From contig JAUWBJ010000002.1 of the NCBI GenBank assembly GCA_030605095.1, positions 2,355 to 66,354 of the forward strand: a stretch of DNA of 64,000 nucleotides, written 5' to 3'. The stretch comes from Candidatus Omnitrophota bacterium (lineage in GTDB: Bacteria > Omnitrophota > Gorgyraeia > JABMRN01 > RBG-13-46-9). Made by a program: the position numbers and the translations under genes. The notes under the pieces were generated by a model. It saw only the letters and a program-made list of their open reading frames with translations, ran no database searches and was not told the DNA's origin. Shown in pieces: positions 33,217 to 55,169 of this stretch (positions are counted from its first letter, which is position 1; every line of letters starts with the position of its first letter).

Positions 33217-33701
33217 TTGTCCCGTTTTTTCTTAAAAAACTCCTGAATCAATGAACGTGATTCGTCTTTTAATAGGCCTCGTTTTACTTTTACTCTATGG
33301 TTTAACTTTTTATTCTGCAGAATATTTAATGCGGAACCGGAGGCGCCTGACTTCGGGTCTTCCGTAGCGTAGAAGAGATTTCGTATTCTTGCTAACACCA
33401 TCGCTCCGGCGCACATCGGACAAGGCTCTATTGTAACATACAGGCCGCAATCTTTCAATCTCTCGTTCTTCAGGTGCGACGCTGCCTGGGTGATCGCTAT
33501 CATCTCGGCATGAGCGGTCGGGTCTTTTAGGGTTTTTATTTGATTATAAGCGCGGCCGATAATCTCCCCCTTATAAACAATAACCGCTCCGACCGGAACC
33601 TCGTCCTTCTCGAACGCGGTTTGCGCCTCTTTCAGCGCCGCCTCCATGTATTTTTTGTGCTTATCAGCCATACCACACTTTTTTCGCCGAAACCAAATCA
33701 A
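33204..33701 (-). CDS. tadA: tRNA-specific adenosine deaminase
   Basis: HAEMIAI...PCPMCAGA zinc-binding motifs. The listed N-terminus (MIWFRRKKCG) is encoded by a repeat; the real start is probably the internal Met (MADKHK...). Confidence 0.85.
   Translation of the reverse strand: MIWFRRKKCGMADKHKKYMEAALKEAQTAFEKDEVPVGAVIVYKGEIIGRAYNQIKTLKDPTAHAEMIAITQAASHLKNERLKDCGLYVTIEPCPMCAGAMVLARIRNLFYATEDPKSGASGSALNILQNKKLNHRVKVKRGLLKDESRSLIQEFFKKKRDKCKK
33668..33700 (-). repeat. Half-copy of the tRNA-trailing hairpin repeat (family 1), overlapping the tadA 5' end
   Basis: ccacacttttttcgccgaaaccaaatcaatg matches the 34497-34553, 49495-49525, 49665-49712 and 53840-53875 copies. Confidence 0.4.
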
Positions 33702-33702
33702 T

Positions 33703-33790
33703 GCTAAAGCGGAGAGGGAGGGACAGGCACCCGTTCCTATTCAAAACAGCTCTTTTAACACCAATTTTAACACCAAAATTCACCTAAACT
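33703..33790 (-). repeat. Upstream-element repeat (family 2) with tandem GGTGTTAAAA motifs
   Basis: About 80% identical to 47607-47690. The minus strand reads GGTGTTAAAATTGGTGTTAAAAG...TTGAATAGGAACGGG. Confidence 0.4.
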
Positions 33791-34394: not shown

Positions 34395-34496
34395 TCCTCC
34401 TATCTAAACATCTCCTTTACTTTGGGCGTAGTTCTTGTACCGTTTCAGAAGTTGAATTCAACCTGTCCCGCAAGCCCTTTCGCCGAAGGCGAAAAG

Positions 34497-34553
34497 CCAA
34501 GGCGAAAAAAGAGAATCCCGCACTTTTTTCGCCGAGACCAAATCAGTACAAAA
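34497..34553 (-). repeat. tRNA-trailing hairpin repeat (family 1), full copy
   Basis: Minus strand GGCGAAAAAAG-UGCGGGAUUCU-CUUUUUUCGCC, immediately 3' of tRNA-Arg. Confidence 0.45.
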
Positions 34554-34554
34554 G

Positions 34555-34628
34555 CGTGCCTGGGAGGATTCGAACCTCCGACCTTTTGCTTCGTAGGCAA
34601 ACGCTCTATCCAGCTGAGCTACAGGCAC
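34555..34628 (-). tRNA. tRNA-Arg(ACG)
   Basis: 74-nt cloverleaf with anticodon loop CUACGAA and T-arm GGUUCGAAUCC. No encoded CCA. Confidence 0.85.
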
Positions 34629-47606: not shown

Positions 47607-47690
47607 ATGGCGGAGAGGCAGGGACAAGCCCCCGTTCCTATTCAAAACTGCCCTTTTAACAGCAATTTTAACACCAGATTTCACTTGTTG
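47607..47690 (-). repeat. Upstream-element repeat (family 2), second copy
   Basis: Homologous to 33703-33790. Lies about 130 nt upstream of the DEAD-box helicase start. Confidence 0.4.
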
Positions 47691-49045: not shown

Positions 49046-49525
49046 TTAAGAAGATTTTAACTTCATTATCCTGCTATTCGCAGGATCGAGTTTACATATT
49101 CTATTTTTTTTATGTTCTAAAACCTTTGGAGCGTTTACTACTTCCTCGAAGCCTCCTCTTTTAAGAAAAGCAGGTTTGTGACTAATGCTGTATATGGGTT
49201 TTTCGGGATTTTGTCTTTTTGCCTCTTCAGTCAGAAATAAAAGCATCTTTACGCCAATGCCTTTTCCTCGGTGGTAATAATCAACGCCTAAAGACGCTAT
49301 TTCAAAATATTCCTTATGGTCCTTTATTCTCCCGAATGCGACTGTTTTACCACTATTTTTTGCAACAAAAAATTGTTTCCAGTTCACGTCGGCGCTATCC
49401 AGAATATATTTTTTCAGTTTTTCTTGAATATAGGGCCAGTCTTTTTCTTTCGCTCTTTCTATTTTTATCTCTTCCATATACAATTCATATTCCGCACTTT
49501 TTTCGCCGAGACCAAATCCATTCAA
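49046..49525 (-). CDS. GNAT-family N-acetyltransferase
   Basis: Acetyl-CoA motif RGKGIG. The first 16 listed residues are encoded by a family-1 repeat; the real start is probably M17 (MEEIKI...). Confidence 0.75.
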   Translation of the reverse strand: MNGFGLGEKSAEYELYMEEIKIERAKEKDWPYIQEKLKKYILDSADVNWKQFFVAKNSGKTVAFGRIKDHKEYFEIASLGVDYYHRGKGIGVKMLLFLTEEAKRQNPEKPIYSISHKPAFLKRGGFEEVVNAPKVLEHKKNRICKLDPANSRIMKLKSS

Positions 49526-49530
49526 GAATA

Positions 49531-49712
49531 GTATTGTCTACTCCCCCTTCCTATTAGGAAGGGACACAGGCCGCCGCAGGCGGCCGTCATAAGGGAAACC
49601 TTGGGTTTCCCTTTGAAATGATTTGGCGTCAGCCTCAGCCGAAGGCTGAGGTTTCTGCCGAAAAAAGAGAATCCCACACTTTTTTCAGCAGAAACCAAAT
49701 CAGTACAAGAGC
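49531..49712 (-). repeat. Structured repeat of about 180 nt (includes the family-1 hairpin), copy 1; candidate ncRNA/leader
   Basis: About 85% identical to 53700-53875 with compensatory stem changes. It lies between tRNA-Ser(UGA) and the GNAT gene. Confidence 0.5.
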
Positions 49713-49799
49713 GGAGAGGGTGGGATTCGAACCCACGTGACTCGTGAGAGTCAAACGGTTTTCAAGACCGCCCGGTTATAGCCACTTCCGTACCTCTCC
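49713..49799 (-). tRNA. tRNA-Ser(UGA)
   Basis: Anticodon loop CUUGAAA, long variable arm, GGUUCGAAUCC. Confidence 0.8.
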
Positions 49800-51757: not shown

Positions 51758-53224
51758 TCACCCTTTTAACACGCAAAGTGGTCGCATACGAGCTACCCGC
51801 TTCGATATACCTGCTTCATGAACGACATGAACAACTTCAGTTACATTCTTATAAGCTTCCGGTGCCTCTTCGGCTAATGTGCCGCGGCCCGCAGCCATCA
51901 CTGATATTCCTTTCTCGGCAAGTTCCCCGGAAATAGACCTTCCCCGACACGCGGAGATAGCTGCTTTTCTTGACATAAGCCGGCCTGCACCGTGGCAGGT
52001 GCTAAAAAACGTTTCTTCGGCTTTCTGGGTTCCGACTAATAAAAACGAATGCCTTCCCATATCACCCGGTATTATAACGGGCTGGCCTATTTCTTTATAC
52101 TTTGACGGTAAATCAGGATGGCCTGGAGGGAAAGCGCGTGTCGCGCCTTTTCTGTGCACGCATAAAAGTTTTTCTTTTTCGTCAATGTTATATTTTTCAA
52201 ATTTTGCTATATTATGGGCGACATCGTAAATCAAGTCCATTCCTAAATCTTTAGAGCTCCTGTTAAAAAATTTCTCAAAAACCTCACGCACAAGATGCAT
52301 AAGGCACTGTCTATTATTCCAGGCATAGTTTGCCGCGCACTTCATCGCGCCAATGTAAGCTTGCCCTTCCGGCGACCTCACCGGAGCGCAGGCAAGTTGT
52401 CTATCAGGAACAGAAATTCCATATTTACTTAGCACGCCAATCATGCCCTTTGAATACTCATCGCATATCTGATGACCAAAACCGCGCGAACCGGAATGTA
52501 TCATTATTGTAATCTGGCCTTTTTCAATATTAAAAATTTCCGCACATTTTTCGTCATAGATTTCGTCTACAAGCTGAATTTCAATAAAATGATTTCCGCT
52601 TCCGAGCGTCCCTGATTGCTTTTTTCCTCTCTGATACGCTCTATCGGAAACCTTCGACGGATCTGCGCCTTGCATTTGTCCGTTTTCTTCGGTGCACTCC
52701 AGATCTTCTTTTGTACCAAATCCTTTACTGACAGCCCATTTTGCGCCGTTTGTTAATATTTTTCTCTCTTCATTAACGTCAACTCTGATTTTTCCTTCGG
52801 AGCCGAGACCGGCTGGGACGTGGTTGTAGAGGGCAGTGACTAAATCTTTAATTCGCGGCTTTATTTCTTTTTCAGTCAGGTTTGTTTTTACAAGCCGGAC
52901 GCCACAATTGATATCGTAACCCACGCCGCCTGGCGTAATTACGCCTCCATCTTCGATATCAGTTGCCACAACGCCGCCTATGGGTAGCCCATAACCCCAG
53001 TGAATGTCAGGCATTGCCAATGAATACTTTACAATTCCCGGAAAGTGCGCCGCATTCGCGACTTGTTGCGGCGCTCTGTCGCGTTCTATACTCTCAAGCA
53101 AATTCTTGTCAGCGTAAATTACGCCAGGCACTCGCATACCCGGCATATAGCTCTTAGGTATGCACCATCTGTAATCGTCTATTTTTTCTAACCGGCCCTG
53201 CCAGATTTGCATATTACACGTCAA
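51758..53224 (-). CDS. rtcB: RNA-splicing ligase RtcB
   Basis: GGVGYDINCG, HSGSRGFGHQ, CHGAGR motifs. Confidence 0.9.
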   Translation of the reverse strand: MTCNMQIWQGRLEKIDDYRWCIPKSYMPGMRVPGVIYADKNLLESIERDRAPQQVANAAHFPGIVKYSLAMPDIHWGYGLPIGGVVATDIEDGGVITPGGVGYDINCGVRLVKTNLTEKEIKPRIKDLVTALYNHVPAGLGSEGKIRVDVNEERKILTNGAKWAVSKGFGTKEDLECTEENGQMQGADPSKVSDRAYQRGKKQSGTLGSGNHFIEIQLVDEIYDEKCAEIFNIEKGQITIMIHSGSRGFGHQICDEYSKGMIGVLSKYGISVPDRQLACAPVRSPEGQAYIGAMKCAANYAWNNRQCLMHLVREVFEKFFNRSSKDLGMDLIYDVAHNIAKFEKYNIDEKEKLLCVHRKGATRAFPPGHPDLPSKYKEIGQPVIIPGDMGRHSFLLVGTQKAEETFFSTCHGAGRLMSRKAAISACRGRSISGELAEKGISVMAAGRGTLAEEAPEAYKNVTEVVHVVHEAGISKRVARMRPLCVLKG

Positions 53225-53630
53225 ATACTATATCTACGCTACACCCTTCGTCCGACTCTCTTATATTAAGGTCGTGGTATGTAGCCGCTTTTATCTCGGT
53301 TTTTAATCTGTTTCTGTTTTCTCCGATATGCCTGCCGTAGACTTTCACCATAAGTTGCTCTTCGCTTAAGAAACTGACCTCAAATTCAAAAAATATAATG
53401 CCTTTTGTGTAGAAATTATAGAGTAGCTCGTCCAGCCAGGAAACTAAAAGCTCCTCTTTCGAAGGAGCTTTTAAATTTACGTCTATGGATACGGAACTTT
53501 TTAAGCCTTCAAGGTCGGCTATGATATCGAACATTCCATAAGCTGCGTTAATAAAAAGTTCCTTTAAATCCTTGCCGTATACTCTAATTGCTATGTCCGC
53601 CGTGTGCGGAATCTGTTCATACCGCTTCAT
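53214..53630 (-). CDS. Archease (RtcB activator)
   Basis: EQIPHTADIAIRVYG N-terminal signature. Overlaps rtcB by 11 bp. Confidence 0.8.
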   Translation of the reverse strand: MKRYEQIPHTADIAIRVYGKDLKELFINAAYGMFDIIADLEGLKSSVSIDVNLKAPSKEELLVSWLDELLYNFYTKGIIFFEFEVSFLSEEQLMVKVYGRHIGENRNRLKTEIKAATYHDLNIRESDEGCSVDIVFDV

Positions 53631-53699
53631 ATTTTTCCTCTAATGGGAAAAAGATTGTTAAGAAAAAACCGTAGGTTTTGTCTTAACTCTAGATTGCGT

Positions 53700-53875
53700 T
53701 ATTCTACTCCCCTTCCTATTAGGAGGGGGTACAGCGAGCGAAGCGAGCGTCATAGGGGGGAACCTGGGTTCCCCTTTGAAATGATTTGGCGTCAGCCTCA
53801 GCCGAAGGCTGAGGTTCCTATTGAAAAAAGAGAATCCCGCACTTTTTTCGGCAGGAACCAAATCAGTATAAGAAG
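53700..53875 (-). repeat. Structured repeat of about 180 nt, copy 2 (immediately 3' of tRNA-Lys)
   Basis: Shares ctttgaaatgatttggcgtcagcctcagccgaaggctgaggtt and the family-1 hairpin with copy 1. Differs by paired substitutions in the stems. Confidence 0.5.
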
Positions 53876-54235
53876 TACCCCGCAGAGGACTCGAACCTCT
53901 CACAATCGCCTTAAACACTATTGTTACCCTACCATAAGATAGAGGGCCAATTCGGTTATATTGGCCTCTGCATATCGCTATGCAGGTCAGACTATACAAT
54001 CTTCGCGAAATATAAAATTTCACGAAGTCCTGATTATAGTCGTTGAACCTCCCCCGTTCTTGCACGCAAGGGCGGGGTTTGGCTGCGGATTGTCTGCATC
54101 GCTGTATTTTTACCTGATACGGTAACAGCGAATACGCCAGAGTTTCCCGCAATTTACAGGATTTTCATCTATTAGTTACCTAATAGCGCCCCTTATTAAA
54201 AAAGGGCGGTGCTCTACCAGATGAGCTAGCGGGGC
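53876..54235 (-). tRNA. tRNA-Lys(UUU) interrupted by a group I intron (exon 1 54235-54203, intron 54202-53916, exon 2 53915-53876)
   Basis: Exon 1 GCCCCGCUAGCUCAUCUGGUAGAGCACCGCCCU plus exon 2 UUUAAGGCGAUUGUGAGAGGUUCGAGUCCUCUGCGGGGUA fold into a cloverleaf with loop CUUUUAA. Confidence 0.65.
53916..54202 (-). ncRNA. Group I self-splicing intron (287 nt, no ORF)
   Basis: P-like AAUUGCGGGAAA, Q-like AAUCCGCAGCC, R-like GUUCAACGACUAUAA and S-like GAUUGUAUAGUCUG elements. P1 pairs exon CGCCCU with IGS GGGGCG (U.G at the 5' splice site). Terminal G precedes exon 2. Confidence 0.7.
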
Positions 54236-54264: not shown

Positions 54265-55125
54265 CTATTTTTTTATAGCGTAAGAAAAAATTGCTGTTCT
54301 TAAAATTTCTCTTTTCTCTATTTCTTCCTGCCATATACTATTTTTACGACAGGGGTTCATGCAAATTAATGGTGAAAAATTTATCTCTCGCATGAAAGCA
54401 ATAAGATTTTTTCTGCCACCGATTTCTATCGCCTTACTATGTATATCTACTCTTGCATTTATGCCAAATTCCTGTAACAGATCTGCTATCTCTCTTAATA
54501 TCTTATCTGACTTCTGATAACCCCTTACTCGTCTTTTATCCTCACATTTGTAATAAACATTGCCCTCGTCATCGAAAAATGCTTTCAAAAATGCTCGCTT
54601 TTCTTCCTTTGTAGCTTTTGTTTTCAAATAAGCTGATATTTCGTTTATTCTTTCTTTTATATATGCTGCAAACTCCACATTGTGAAAAGCCACGACAGTA
54701 ACTCCATTTTTCCGAACATGTATCTTTGGCTCAATTCCAAAAACTCGTTTAACCAACACTTTGAGATGCTCAATCTGATATTTTGAGCGGTTATAATATG
54801 TGCATCCGCCTTGGCGTACATGGCCATCAAACATAAAATGAGCTACTACATGGATAATTTCAGGATTCCAGCCCAATGGTTTATTTATGTTTCTACCTGG
54901 TAAACAAATACCCTTTCGGGGATTTGTTCTGTTTCTGAGTAGTAATTCAATTTTTCTCTTCAGAATCTCGTTTTTCTGATCTTGCGTTAATTCGACTCCC
55001 TCTATATAGCCGTATACCGTACTTTTAGGCAGTCTTGTCTTGGCCATTATAGAGTTCAAAGAAAAACCTTGTTCCCTAAGATTCCTACATAGTTTTTTAA
55101 TATATTTTCTACTCTTATACTTCAT
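54265..55125 (-). CDS. HTH-LAGLIDADG homing-endonuclease-like protein (free-standing, directly upstream of tRNA-Lys)
   Basis: Two LAGLIDADG-like motifs (HFMFDGHV and LKAFFDDEGNV) after an N-terminal HTH. Confidence 0.65.
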   Translation of the reverse strand: MKYKSRKYIKKLCRNLREQGFSLNSIMAKTRLPKSTVYGYIEGVELTQDQKNEILKRKIELLLRNRTNPRKGICLPGRNINKPLGWNPEIIHVVAHFMFDGHVRQGGCTYYNRSKYQIEHLKVLVKRVFGIEPKIHVRKNGVTVVAFHNVEFAAYIKERINEISAYLKTKATKEEKRAFLKAFFDDEGNVYYKCEDKRRVRGYQKSDKILREIADLLQEFGINARVDIHSKAIEIGGRKNLIAFMREINFSPLICMNPCRKNSIWQEEIEKREILRTAIFSYAIKK

Positions 55126-55135
55126 AACAACAAAA

Positions 55136-55167
55136 AAAGCGGTGCTCTACCAGATGAGCTAGCGGGG
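55136..55167 (-). repeat. 32-nt duplicate of the tRNA-Lys 5' exon (positions -2 to +30) followed by a T-run, placed just before the LAGLIDADG ATG
   Basis: ggtgctctaccagatgagctagcggggca is identical at 54208-54236 and 55138-55166. Confidence 0.5.
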
Positions 55168-55169
55168 CA

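What the first reader, a model, noticed from the sequence alone, without database searches (positions are those of the whole stretch)
49531..49712. Structured repeat of about 180 nt with compensatory stem substitutions (copy 1 of 2)
Copies at 49531-49712 and 53700-53875 share long identical blocks (ctttgaaatgatttggcgtcagcctcagccgaaggctgaggtt). Where they differ, hairpins stay paired (GGGAAACC/GGTTTCCC vs GGGGAACC/GGTTCCCC; CCTTCC-TATTA-GGAAGG vs CCTTCC-TATTA-GGAGGG). On the minus strand one hairpin carries a UUCG tetraloop (CAGCCUUCGGCUG). Both follow a tRNA and its family-1 hairpin and come before the next protein gene. Covariation at this scale points to a functional RNA (leader, sRNA, or processing platform) rather than neutral repeat DNA.
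Basis: seen in the sequence. Interest (0 to 1): 0.55.

Follow-up and report, generated by a model that had tools for sequence, protein, structure and literature searches.

The report
tRNA-trailing structured repeat family, Omnitrophota
The two ~180-nt repeats are real copies of an undescribed, six-helix structured element that sits directly behind tRNA genes in a small group of uncultivated Omnitrophota bacteria. Its base pairs are kept by compensating mutations across genomes, so it is under selection, most likely as RNA made with the tRNA, though its job is unknown.

Summary
Copies at 49531-49710 and 53696-53875 (minus strand) share a 43-nt identical block and fold alike. I found nine more instances in relatives (Omnitrophota MAGs, one complete genome, one metagenome contig). 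Every one starts about 1-10 nt after a tRNA gene on the tRNA's strand, behind six different tRNAs (Ser-UGA, Lys-UUU, Arg-ACG, Met-CAU, Val-CAC, Glu-CUC).

On 11 sequences, 93.8% of pair cells are standard pairs and 27 of 55 pairs change on both sides. Slid controls give 5-15 pairs, and 0 of 500 shuffles reach the observed values.

No Rfam family matches and no relevant paper turned up. The element is not a leader for one gene, since downstream partners differ and two are tRNAs. It is patchy among close relatives, multi-copy and mosaic, and it leaves 5' fragments and duplicated tRNA 3' ends, so it also behaves as a duplicating cassette.

Best reading: a tRNA-trailer structured RNA, co-transcribed and released by tRNA processing. 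Function is unknown, and base pairing cannot tell the strand or rule out a DNA-level role.

The parts
49531..49710 (-). Element copy 1 (the finding), behind tRNA-Ser(UGA). Leader CUCUUGUAC. P1 49702-49694 / 49627-49619. P2 49693-49679 / 49667-49653. P3 49651-49644 / 49640-49633. P4 49612-49604 / 49600-49592, extended by UCAA / UAUGA. P5 49585-49580 / 49574-49569. P6 49564-49557 / 49551-49544.
   Evidence: cmsearch 219 bits. Fold -91.6 kcal/mol, z = -8.6. Helix coordinates; pair counts.
53696..53875 (-). Element copy 2, behind tRNA-Lys(UUU) and in front of archease-rtcB. P1 53865-53857 / 53790-53782. P2 53856-53842 / 53830-53816. P3 53814-53807 / 53803-53796. P4 53775-53767 / 53763-53755. P5 53748-53743 / 53739-53734 (U.C/C.U internal mismatch). 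P6 53729-53722 / 53716-53709.
   Evidence: cmsearch 215 bits; helix coordinates. Orthologous copies at the same site in L083, L087 and L004.
49711..49799 (-). tRNA-Ser(UGA). Its 3' end abuts copy 1, and CCA is not encoded here, whereas it is in the relatives whose site is empty.
   Evidence: ARAGORN and Rfam tRNA. Empty orthologous sites in L083 and L085.
53876..54235 (-). tRNA-Lys(UUU) interrupted by a group I intron. Exon 1 is 54235-54203, the intron about 54202-53916, exon 2 53915-53876. Copy 2 starts at the next base.
   Evidence: Rfam Intron_gpI 101.7 bits. Exon mapping against intron-less tRNA-Lys of relatives.
49490..49518 (-). 5' fragment of a second unit (P1 5' strand plus P2 5' arm: GATTTGGTCTCGGCGAAAAAAGTGCGG). 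It lies between copy 1 and the GNAT start codon.
   Evidence: Repeat family D1, pattern scan, nhmmer.
34432..34555 (-). Partial copy behind tRNA-Arg(ACG) (34555-34628). It has the leader, the P1 5' strand, P2 and a P3-like hairpin. The P1 3' strand and P4-P6 are missing. The orthologous site in the complete genome CP070780.1 holds a full copy (L098 11845-12026).
   Evidence: cmsearch 44.9 bits; sequence; L098 and L099.
33670..33699 (-). Another 5' fragment (GATTTGGTTTCGGCGAAAAAAGTGTGG). It directly abuts the ATG of a tadA-like deaminase gene and is preceded by a tRNA-Ser-like 3' end fragment.
53214..53630 (-). Archease gene, followed by rtcB (51758-53224). This is the cistron downstream of copy 2.
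   Evidence: Pfam annotation on the identical Logan contig; ORFs.
49046..49480 (-). GNAT acetyltransferase gene, the cistron downstream of copy 1.
   Evidence: Pfam.

Best explanation
The finding is one copy of an undescribed family of structured elements, about 175-240 nt with six helices, that occupies the 3' flank of tRNA genes in a clade of Candidatus Omnitrophota.

Most likely mechanism. These genomes are compact and interleave tRNAs and protein genes on one strand with spacers as short as 10 nt. The element is therefore transcribed as the tRNA's 3' trailer (inferred). tRNA 3'-end processing (RNase Z or exonucleases, then CCA addition) separates it from the tRNA (inferred). It then folds into a P1/P2/P3 three-way junction followed by hairpins P4, P5 and P6 (shown by covariation). 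It stays on as a stable structured RNA, either as a free spacer RNA when another tRNA follows or as the 5' module of the next mRNA. Its conserved purine-rich GGA / Shine-Dalgarno-like motifs lie in the P2 loop and the P6 3' arm. They may bind a protein or the ribosome, and in some copies they have become the downstream gene's ribosome-binding site (partly shown).

New copies arise by duplication and recombination between tRNA flanks (shown by mosaic identities and filled/empty sites). The molecular function is not established.
For: 1. Real repeat: identical 43-mer, 2 matches against 0 expected.
2. Eleven instances, all starting about 1-10 nt behind a tRNA on the tRNA's strand, behind six tRNA identities.
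3. Structure is selected. On A7, 93.8% of cells are paired and 27 of 55 pairs (67 cells) change on both sides. Slid controls give 46-63% paired and 5-15 pairs, and 0 of 500 shuffles reach the observed values. The 7-sequence set gives the same picture. P5 has unrelated sequences in different copies but always pairs.
4. An independent MAFFT + RNAalifold run recovers P1, P2, P3, P4 and P6. It adds a covarying extension of P4 in which UCAA/UAUGA becomes CCAA/UAUGG.
5. A U.G pair closing P1 is kept in 9 of 11 copies (C-G in the other two). On the other strand it would be C.A.
6. Not coding. Reading from the conserved AUG gives different frames, and a stop codon right after the AUG in L087 (sequences).
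7. Co-transcription is plausible. All neighbouring genes share the strand, relatives have only 10 nt between tRNA-Ser and the GNAT ATG, and no promoter-like or terminator-like site lies in or next to the copies on that strand.
8. In L098 the P6 3' arm GGAGGG sits 5-6 nt before the tadA ATG.
9. No known family matches.
Against: - There is no expression data, so no transcript ends are known.
- The antisense strand folds as well or better: alifold -64.2 versus -58.3 kcal/mol, and 7 of 9 single sequences are more stable antisense.
- On the tRNA strand there are 16 G.U pairs against 10 A.C juxtapositions. That is not the strong excess expected of a pure sense-strand RNA.
- The element is dispensable. 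Close relatives lack it at the same sites: L085, L088, L089 and L090 for the tRNA-Lys site, L083 and L085 for the tRNA-Ser site.
- Patchiness, 5' fragments and duplicated tRNA 3' ends (L083, L087, L092) are as expected of a selfish cassette.
- The alignments used for counting were fitted to a covariance model, which leans towards the structure.
Confidence: 0.5

Rival explanations
1. A selfish, non-autonomous cassette acting at the DNA level. The hairpins would be recognition structures, double- or single-stranded, for a recombinase that targets tRNA 3' ends. Alternatively the element is the end-remnant of tRNA-integrating islands, and any transcription is incidental.
For: - Filled and empty sites occur among genomes whose archease is 83-93% identical.
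- In L083 the body is flanked by a ~57-nt direct repeat made of the tRNA-Lys 3' end from the T-loop, the leader and the P1/P2 5' strands.
- L087 and L092 also carry duplicated tRNA 3' ends.
- A tyrosine integrase gene sits next to the tRNA-Ser cluster in L085 and L086.
- The 5' domain clusters by genome while the 3' domain is mosaic across genomes.
- Assemblies break at the element (L001, L084, L099-L102).
- Both strands fold equally well.
Against: - The window copies have no duplicated tRNA 3' end.
- No integrase, transposase or reverse transcriptase was found among the ten ORFs scanned around the copies.
- There are no terminal inverted repeats.
- The body between repeats is only about 135 nt, too small for a classical integrative element.
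- Six different tRNAs are used, which argues against one att specificity.
- Orientation is strictly that of transcription.
- Six helices with conserved junction nucleotides exceed what known recombination sites need.
Confidence: 0.27
2. A cis-regulatory leader (riboswitch or attenuator) of the archease-rtcB RNA-repair operon. The tRNA-Ser copy would be a secondary duplicate.
For: The copy between tRNA-Lys and archease-rtcB is the one shared by the most lineages: window, L083, L087 and L004. In L098, P6 occludes a ribosome-binding site.
Against: - Other copies precede GNAT, tadA, a zinc-ribbon gene or another tRNA.
- Several close relatives keep archease-rtcB without it.
- There is no terminator or anti-terminator alternative, and the archease ribosome-binding site lies 50-70 nt beyond P6.
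Confidence: 0.08
3. A new self-cleaving ribozyme or processing platform that cuts at the tRNA/trailer boundary. It would produce 2',3'-cyclic phosphate and 5'-OH ends, which are the substrates of RtcB.
For: Fixed position at the tRNA 3' end, multi-helix junctions with conserved unpaired nucleotides, multi-copy and patchy distribution like many small ribozymes, and frequent adjacency to archease-rtcB.
Against: No match to any ribozyme family in Rfam. Most of the conserved 'linkers' turn out to be paired. There is no biochemical evidence, and RNase Z alone suffices to explain processing.
Confidence: 0.05
4. A chance or recent neutral duplication whose hairpins are incidental, for example stacked terminators.
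For: The two window copies alone give only two or three compensatory changes.
Against: Homologues in at least five other genomes show extensive covariation. None of the hairpins has a U-tract.
Confidence: 0.02

Closest known systems
RtT RNA of Escherichia coli (tyrT operon trailer repeats; Rfam RF00391). Recalled from memory; only the Rfam comparison was tested.
   Same: It is a small RNA of about 170 nt encoded in repeated units in the 3' trailer of a tRNA operon, released by processing of the tRNA transcript, and of unclear function.
   Different: There is no sequence or structure match: no RtT hit at E <= 10 in the copy 1 region. The phylum differs. Here there is one unit per tRNA behind many different tRNAs, with a six-helix architecture.
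Structured intergenic repeats of bacteria (ERIC/IRU, REP/BIME, Correia, RUP, BOX). Recalled from memory.
   Same: They are multi-copy, non-coding, lie in transcribed intergenic DNA, have secondary structure kept by compensatory changes, are patchy between strains, and sometimes supply or mask expression signals.
   Different: Those are single imperfect palindromes or MITEs with terminal inverted repeats, and they occur in both orientations at many kinds of site. This element has no TIRs, has six helices including a three-way junction, and in all 11 cases sits behind a tRNA in one orientation.
tRNA-gene 3'-end integration sites of genomic islands (attL/attR with a duplicated tRNA 3' end). Recalled from memory.
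   Same: Duplicated tRNA 3' ends starting in the T-loop flank or adjoin the element in L083, L087 and L092.
   Different: The window copies have no such duplication and no integrase nearby, and the unit is only about 180 nt. The covariation pattern is that of a folded single strand.
tRNA external transcribed spacer sRNAs (for example 3'ETS-leuZ). Recalled from memory.
   Same: They are functional RNAs derived from tRNA precursor spacers by RNase processing.
   Different: Those are short, poorly structured sponge sequences specific to one operon. This one is long, highly structured and repeated.

Membership tests
Any Rfam 15 family | Covariance-model score at or above the family's gathering threshold | tested here: not met
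   The window at gathering thresholds gives only tRNAs and Intron_gpI. The copy 1 region at E <= 10 gives only weak miRNA-type noise. L082 and L004 at E <= 1 give nothing on the element.
RtT RNA (RF00391) | Located in the 3' trailer of a tRNA gene or operon | tested here: met
   All 11 instances start about 1-10 nt after a tRNA.
RtT RNA (RF00391) | Sequence and structure homology to the RtT model | tested here: not met
   RF00391 is not among the hits at E <= 10.
RtT RNA (RF00391) | A discrete processed transcript | not testable with these tools
   No expression data are available.
MITE | Terminal inverted repeats | tested here: not met
   Best local match between the first 30 nt and the reverse complement of the last 30 nt is no better than shuffles in all 10 copies.
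MITE | Short target-site duplication at every copy | tested here: not met
   Copy 2, L004 and L082 have no flanking direct repeat. Copy 1 and L083 have long repeats of 28 and about 57 nt that are part of the element or tRNA.
REP/ERIC-type structured repeat | Multi-copy, intergenic, non-coding | tested here: met
   The 64-kb window holds 2 full copies, 1 partial copy and 2 fragments. About 42 kb of CP070780.1 holds 3 full copies.
REP/ERIC-type structured repeat | Single imperfect palindrome, found in either orientation at varied sites | tested here: not met
   There are six helices, always in one orientation behind a tRNA.
tRNA-targeting integrative element (att remnant) | Direct repeat of the tRNA 3' end bounding the insert | tested here: inconclusive
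   Present in L083, L087 and L092. Absent at both window copies, L004 and L082.
tRNA-targeting integrative element (att remnant) | Integrase gene within or next to the insert | tested here: not met
   Pfam scan of the ten neighbouring ORFs tested finds none. An integrase lies near the tRNA-Ser cluster only in L085 and L086.
Gene-specific cis-regulatory leader / riboswitch | Conserved association with one downstream gene family | tested here: not met
   Downstream partners are archease-rtcB, GNAT, tadA, a zinc-ribbon gene, tRNA-Val (twice) and non-coding DNA.
Intrinsic terminator | GC-rich hairpin followed by a U-tract on the transcribed strand | tested here: not met
   No minus-strand terminator-like site lies within either copy.
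Known self-cleaving ribozyme classes | Match to a ribozyme covariance model; site-specific cleavage | tested here: not met
   No Rfam ribozyme hit. Cleavage itself cannot be tested here.

The most novel reading that the evidence does not exclude
The element is an RNA-level mobile or catalytic module specific to tRNA 3' ends. One form would be a new self-cleaving ribozyme or processing platform whose 5'-OH and 2',3'-cyclic-phosphate products are handled by the adjacent archease-RtcB ligase. The other would be a SINE-like cassette that copies itself behind new tRNA genes. That would explain the identical junction one base after the discriminator behind unrelated tRNAs.
Probability: 0.08. Interest if true: 0.85.

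Novelty: new variant of a known kind. Interest (0 to 1): 0.55.

Why it matters
It adds a well-supported, previously uncatalogued structured element to an uncultivated phylum of ultra-small bacteria. The element has six helices and strong covariation.

Its strict linkage to tRNA 3' ends, its multi-copy mosaic evolution and its frequent position in front of the RNA-repair operon archease-rtcB make it a concrete candidate for studying three things. These are how tRNA-punctuated transcripts are processed in streamlined genomes, how trailer-derived RNAs arise, and how small non-autonomous repeats spread.

Practically, it breaks assemblies at tRNA loci and can be mis-called as ORFs, for example 53658-54152.

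Tried and rejected
- Rfam at gathering and E-value thresholds found no family.
- Exact-pattern scans with window-specific 23-mer and 27-mer patterns found nothing in GTDB representative genomes or JGI metagenomes. A degenerate P4...P6 pattern then found L082. A similar pattern found nothing in viral contigs.
- A look-up of the GNAT protein found no record.
- Coding potential: the conserved AUG in UAUGAC opens no conserved frame. That AUG is in fact part of the P4 extension.
- Sigma-70 promoter and intrinsic terminator scans found nothing on the relevant strand.
- MITE-type terminal repeats: none.
- A long-range helix between the leader and the tail, and a P2-loop/linker pseudoknot, were checked by eye. 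Neither is consistent across copies.
- Deciding the strand from G.U versus A.C counts and from fold energies was inconclusive.
A MAFFT alignment of the 3' domain was too shifted around P5 to use. I therefore used model R1 and nhmmer profiles.
- Literature searches on Omnitrophota/Omnitrophica with RNA motifs and tRNA found nothing relevant.
- The 14 kb between the 75-nt D4 repeats (33709-33783 and 47610-47684) showed no integrase among the ORFs I scanned.

Full report
**Observation.** The two copies are real. On the minus strand, 49531-49712 and 53696-53875 align over their whole length. They share the exact 43-mer CCTCAGCCTTCGGCTGAGGCTGACGCCAAATCATTTCAAAGGG, with 2 matches in the window and 0 in 100 shuffles. 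Copy 1 folds at -91.6 kcal/mol (z = -8.6) and copy 2 at -62.8 kcal/mol (z = -3.2). Between the two copies, two pairs change on both sides: A-U to G-C in P4 and U-A to C-G in P2. The 'UUCG tetraloop' is out of register, and copy 2 has an internal U.C/C.U mismatch in P5.

**Context.** All genes near both copies are on the minus strand. In transcription order they are:
- pyrH, frr
- a stray 5' half of tRNA-Lys
- a LAGLIDADG ORF
- tRNA-Lys(UUU) split by a group I intron (Rfam 101.7 bits; exons mapped)
- copy 2
- archease, rtcB, serS, a membrane protein
- tRNA-Ser(UGA)
- copy 1
- a 28-nt 5' fragment of a further unit
- a GNAT gene
- tRNA-Ser(CGA) and tRNA-Ser(GGA)

RtcB relatives place the organism in Candidatus Omnitrophota.

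**Homologues.** A covariance model built from the two copies (R1), together with protein-guided retrieval of related contigs, gave nine more instances:
- L004, behind an intron-less tRNA-Lys and in front of archease-rtcB (77 bits)
- L082, two units in tandem: tRNA-Met, element, tRNA-Val, element
- L087 and L083, behind tRNA-Lys (126 and 106 bits)
- L098, from the same complete genome as L083 (CP070780.1): one behind tRNA-Arg abutting tadA, one between tRNA-Met and tRNA-Val
- L092, behind tRNA-Glu, with the 5' domain replaced by a single hairpin
- a partial copy in the window behind tRNA-Arg(ACG)

L099 carries a further copy cut off by the contig end. Every instance starts about 1-10 nt after the tRNA, on its strand.

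**Structure.** The order is a leader of about 9 nt, then P1 (9 bp) closing a three-way junction with P2 and P3. Then come P4 (GGGGAAACC-UAA-GGUUUCCCC), P5 and P6 (CCCCUUCC-UAAUA-GGAAGGGG).

On the 11-sequence alignment, 93.8% of cells are standard pairs, and 27 of 55 pairs (67 cells) change on both sides. Partners slid by 1-3 columns give 46-63% paired and 5-15 such pairs, and 0 of 500 shuffles reach the observed values. The 7-sequence set gives 94% and 21 of 55. P5 has unrelated sequences in different copies yet pairs in all of them.

Those alignments were fitted to model R1. An independent MAFFT + RNAalifold run recovers P1, P2, P3, P4 and P6. It also shows that the 'conserved linkers' UCAA and UAUGA pair with each other, with a covarying U-A to C-G change in L083 and L004. 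P4 is therefore a longer helix with a bulged A.

**What it is not.**
- No Rfam family matches, and no relevant literature was found.
- It is not coding. Frames differ between copies, and L087 has a stop codon right after the AUG (sequence).
- It is not a terminator or promoter by consensus scans.
- It is not a MITE.
- It is not a leader for one gene. Downstream partners include archease-rtcB, GNAT, tadA, a zinc-ribbon gene and, twice, tRNA-Val.

**Dynamics.**
- The tRNA-Ser site of copy 1 is empty in L083 and L085, with 10 nt between the tRNA and the GNAT ATG.
- The tRNA-Lys site is empty or differently occupied in L085, L088, L089 and L090, although their archease is 86-93% identical to the window's.
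- The 5' domain clusters by genome: 92% between the window copies, 92-95% in CP070780.1 and 88% in L082. The 3' domain is mosaic: copy 1 is 92% identical to the tRNA-Arg copy of CP070780.1 but only 76% to copy 2, and copy 2 is 88% identical to L092.
- 5' fragments (leader, P1 5' strand, P2 5' arm) lie downstream of full copies or right in front of start codons.
- In L083 a ~57-nt repeat that includes the tRNA-Lys 3' end flanks the body. L087 and L092 also carry duplicated tRNA 3' ends.
- Assemblies often end at the element.

**Strand.** Context favours the tRNA strand. A U.G pair closing P1 is kept in 9 of 11 copies, with C-G in the other two. Overall, though, there are 16 G.U pairs against 10 A.C juxtapositions, and the antisense strand folds slightly better. 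Pairing therefore cannot decide the strand or exclude a single-stranded-DNA role.

**Interpretation.** Best supported, at about 0.5, is a tRNA-trailer structured RNA. It would be co-transcribed with the tRNA, released by tRNA 3' processing, and kept as a stable RNA or as the 5' module of the next cistron. It has purine-rich GGA / Shine-Dalgarno-like motifs in the P2 loop and P6. In L098 the P6 3' arm GGAGGG is the tadA ribosome-binding site.

The family also propagates among tRNA flanks by recombination. The main rival, at about 0.27, is a DNA-level selfish or att-related cassette. Minor rivals are an archease-rtcB leader, a new ribozyme, and chance.

The closest analogues I can recall are the RtT RNA of the E. 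coli tyrT trailer and ERIC/REP-type structured repeats. Homology to RtT was tested through Rfam and not found.

**Verdict.** A genuine, undescribed structured element family of unknown function. Interest is moderate to high (0.55).

Noticed in passing
window 53876-54235 (-): tRNA-Lys(UUU) carries a group I intron of about 287 nt in the anticodon loop, with the splice site apparently after U33. ARAGORN missed the gene. The tRNA-Lys of relatives (L004, L085, L088-L090) has no intron.
   Followed up: partly
window 55139-55168 (-) and 54265-55125 (-): A 30-nt copy of the tRNA-Lys 5' half lies just after frr. It is followed by a 286-aa LAGLIDADG homing-endonuclease-like ORF (Pfam LAGLIDADG_3, 4.9e-14), and only then by the complete intron-containing tRNA-Lys. 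This looks like a homing-endonuclease insertion with duplication of the 5' exon.
   Followed up: partly
window 33709-33783 and 47610-47684: A 75-nt direct repeat (89% identical) contains GGTGTTAAAA motifs and ends in a tRNA-Ser-like 3' end (CCCTCTCCGC). The copies are 13.9 kb apart. No integrase was found among the ORFs I scanned between them, so its origin is unexplained.
   Followed up: partly
L087 9300-9512; L088 3625-3781; L089 1489-1645; L098 14314-14194 (-): A second kind of tRNA-trailing insert ('type 2', about 150-190 nt). In L087, L088 and L089 it ends in CGTAGTAGG followed by a duplicate of the tRNA's last 19-20 nt, starting in the T-loop. In L098 the right end is masked by N. The right end of the L092 insert has the same CGTAGTAGGC junction.
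   Followed up: no
L083 10419-14642: The rtcB gene of the complete genome CP070780.1 encodes 1407 aa with intein-splicing and LAGLIDADG domains. The window's RtcB (488 aa) has none.
   Followed up: no
L098 11990-12018: In the tRNA-Arg copy of CP070780.1 the P6 3' arm (GGAGGG) lies 5-6 nt before the tadA ATG. The hairpin would therefore sequester that gene's ribosome-binding site.
   Followed up: partly
L082 602-947 (-): Bacterial RNase P RNA class A (214 bits) lies on the same short metagenome contig as the two tandem tRNA-element units.
   Followed up: no
window 53658-54152 (-): A 164-aa mechanical ORF runs through copy 2 and the group I intron. It is almost certainly spurious and could be mis-annotated as a gene.
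   Followed up: yes
L092 4842-5772; L087 14352-14627: Free-standing LAGLIDADG and GIY-YIG endonuclease genes lie next to tRNA genes in relatives as well. tRNA loci in this clade seem to be hot spots for selfish elements.
   Followed up: no
window 53680-53650 (-); L087 9727-9755: A short conserved A/U-rich hairpin with a U-run (GACAAAACCUACGGUUUUUUCUUA) follows the element in copy 2 and in L087. It could be a weak terminator.
   Followed up: no
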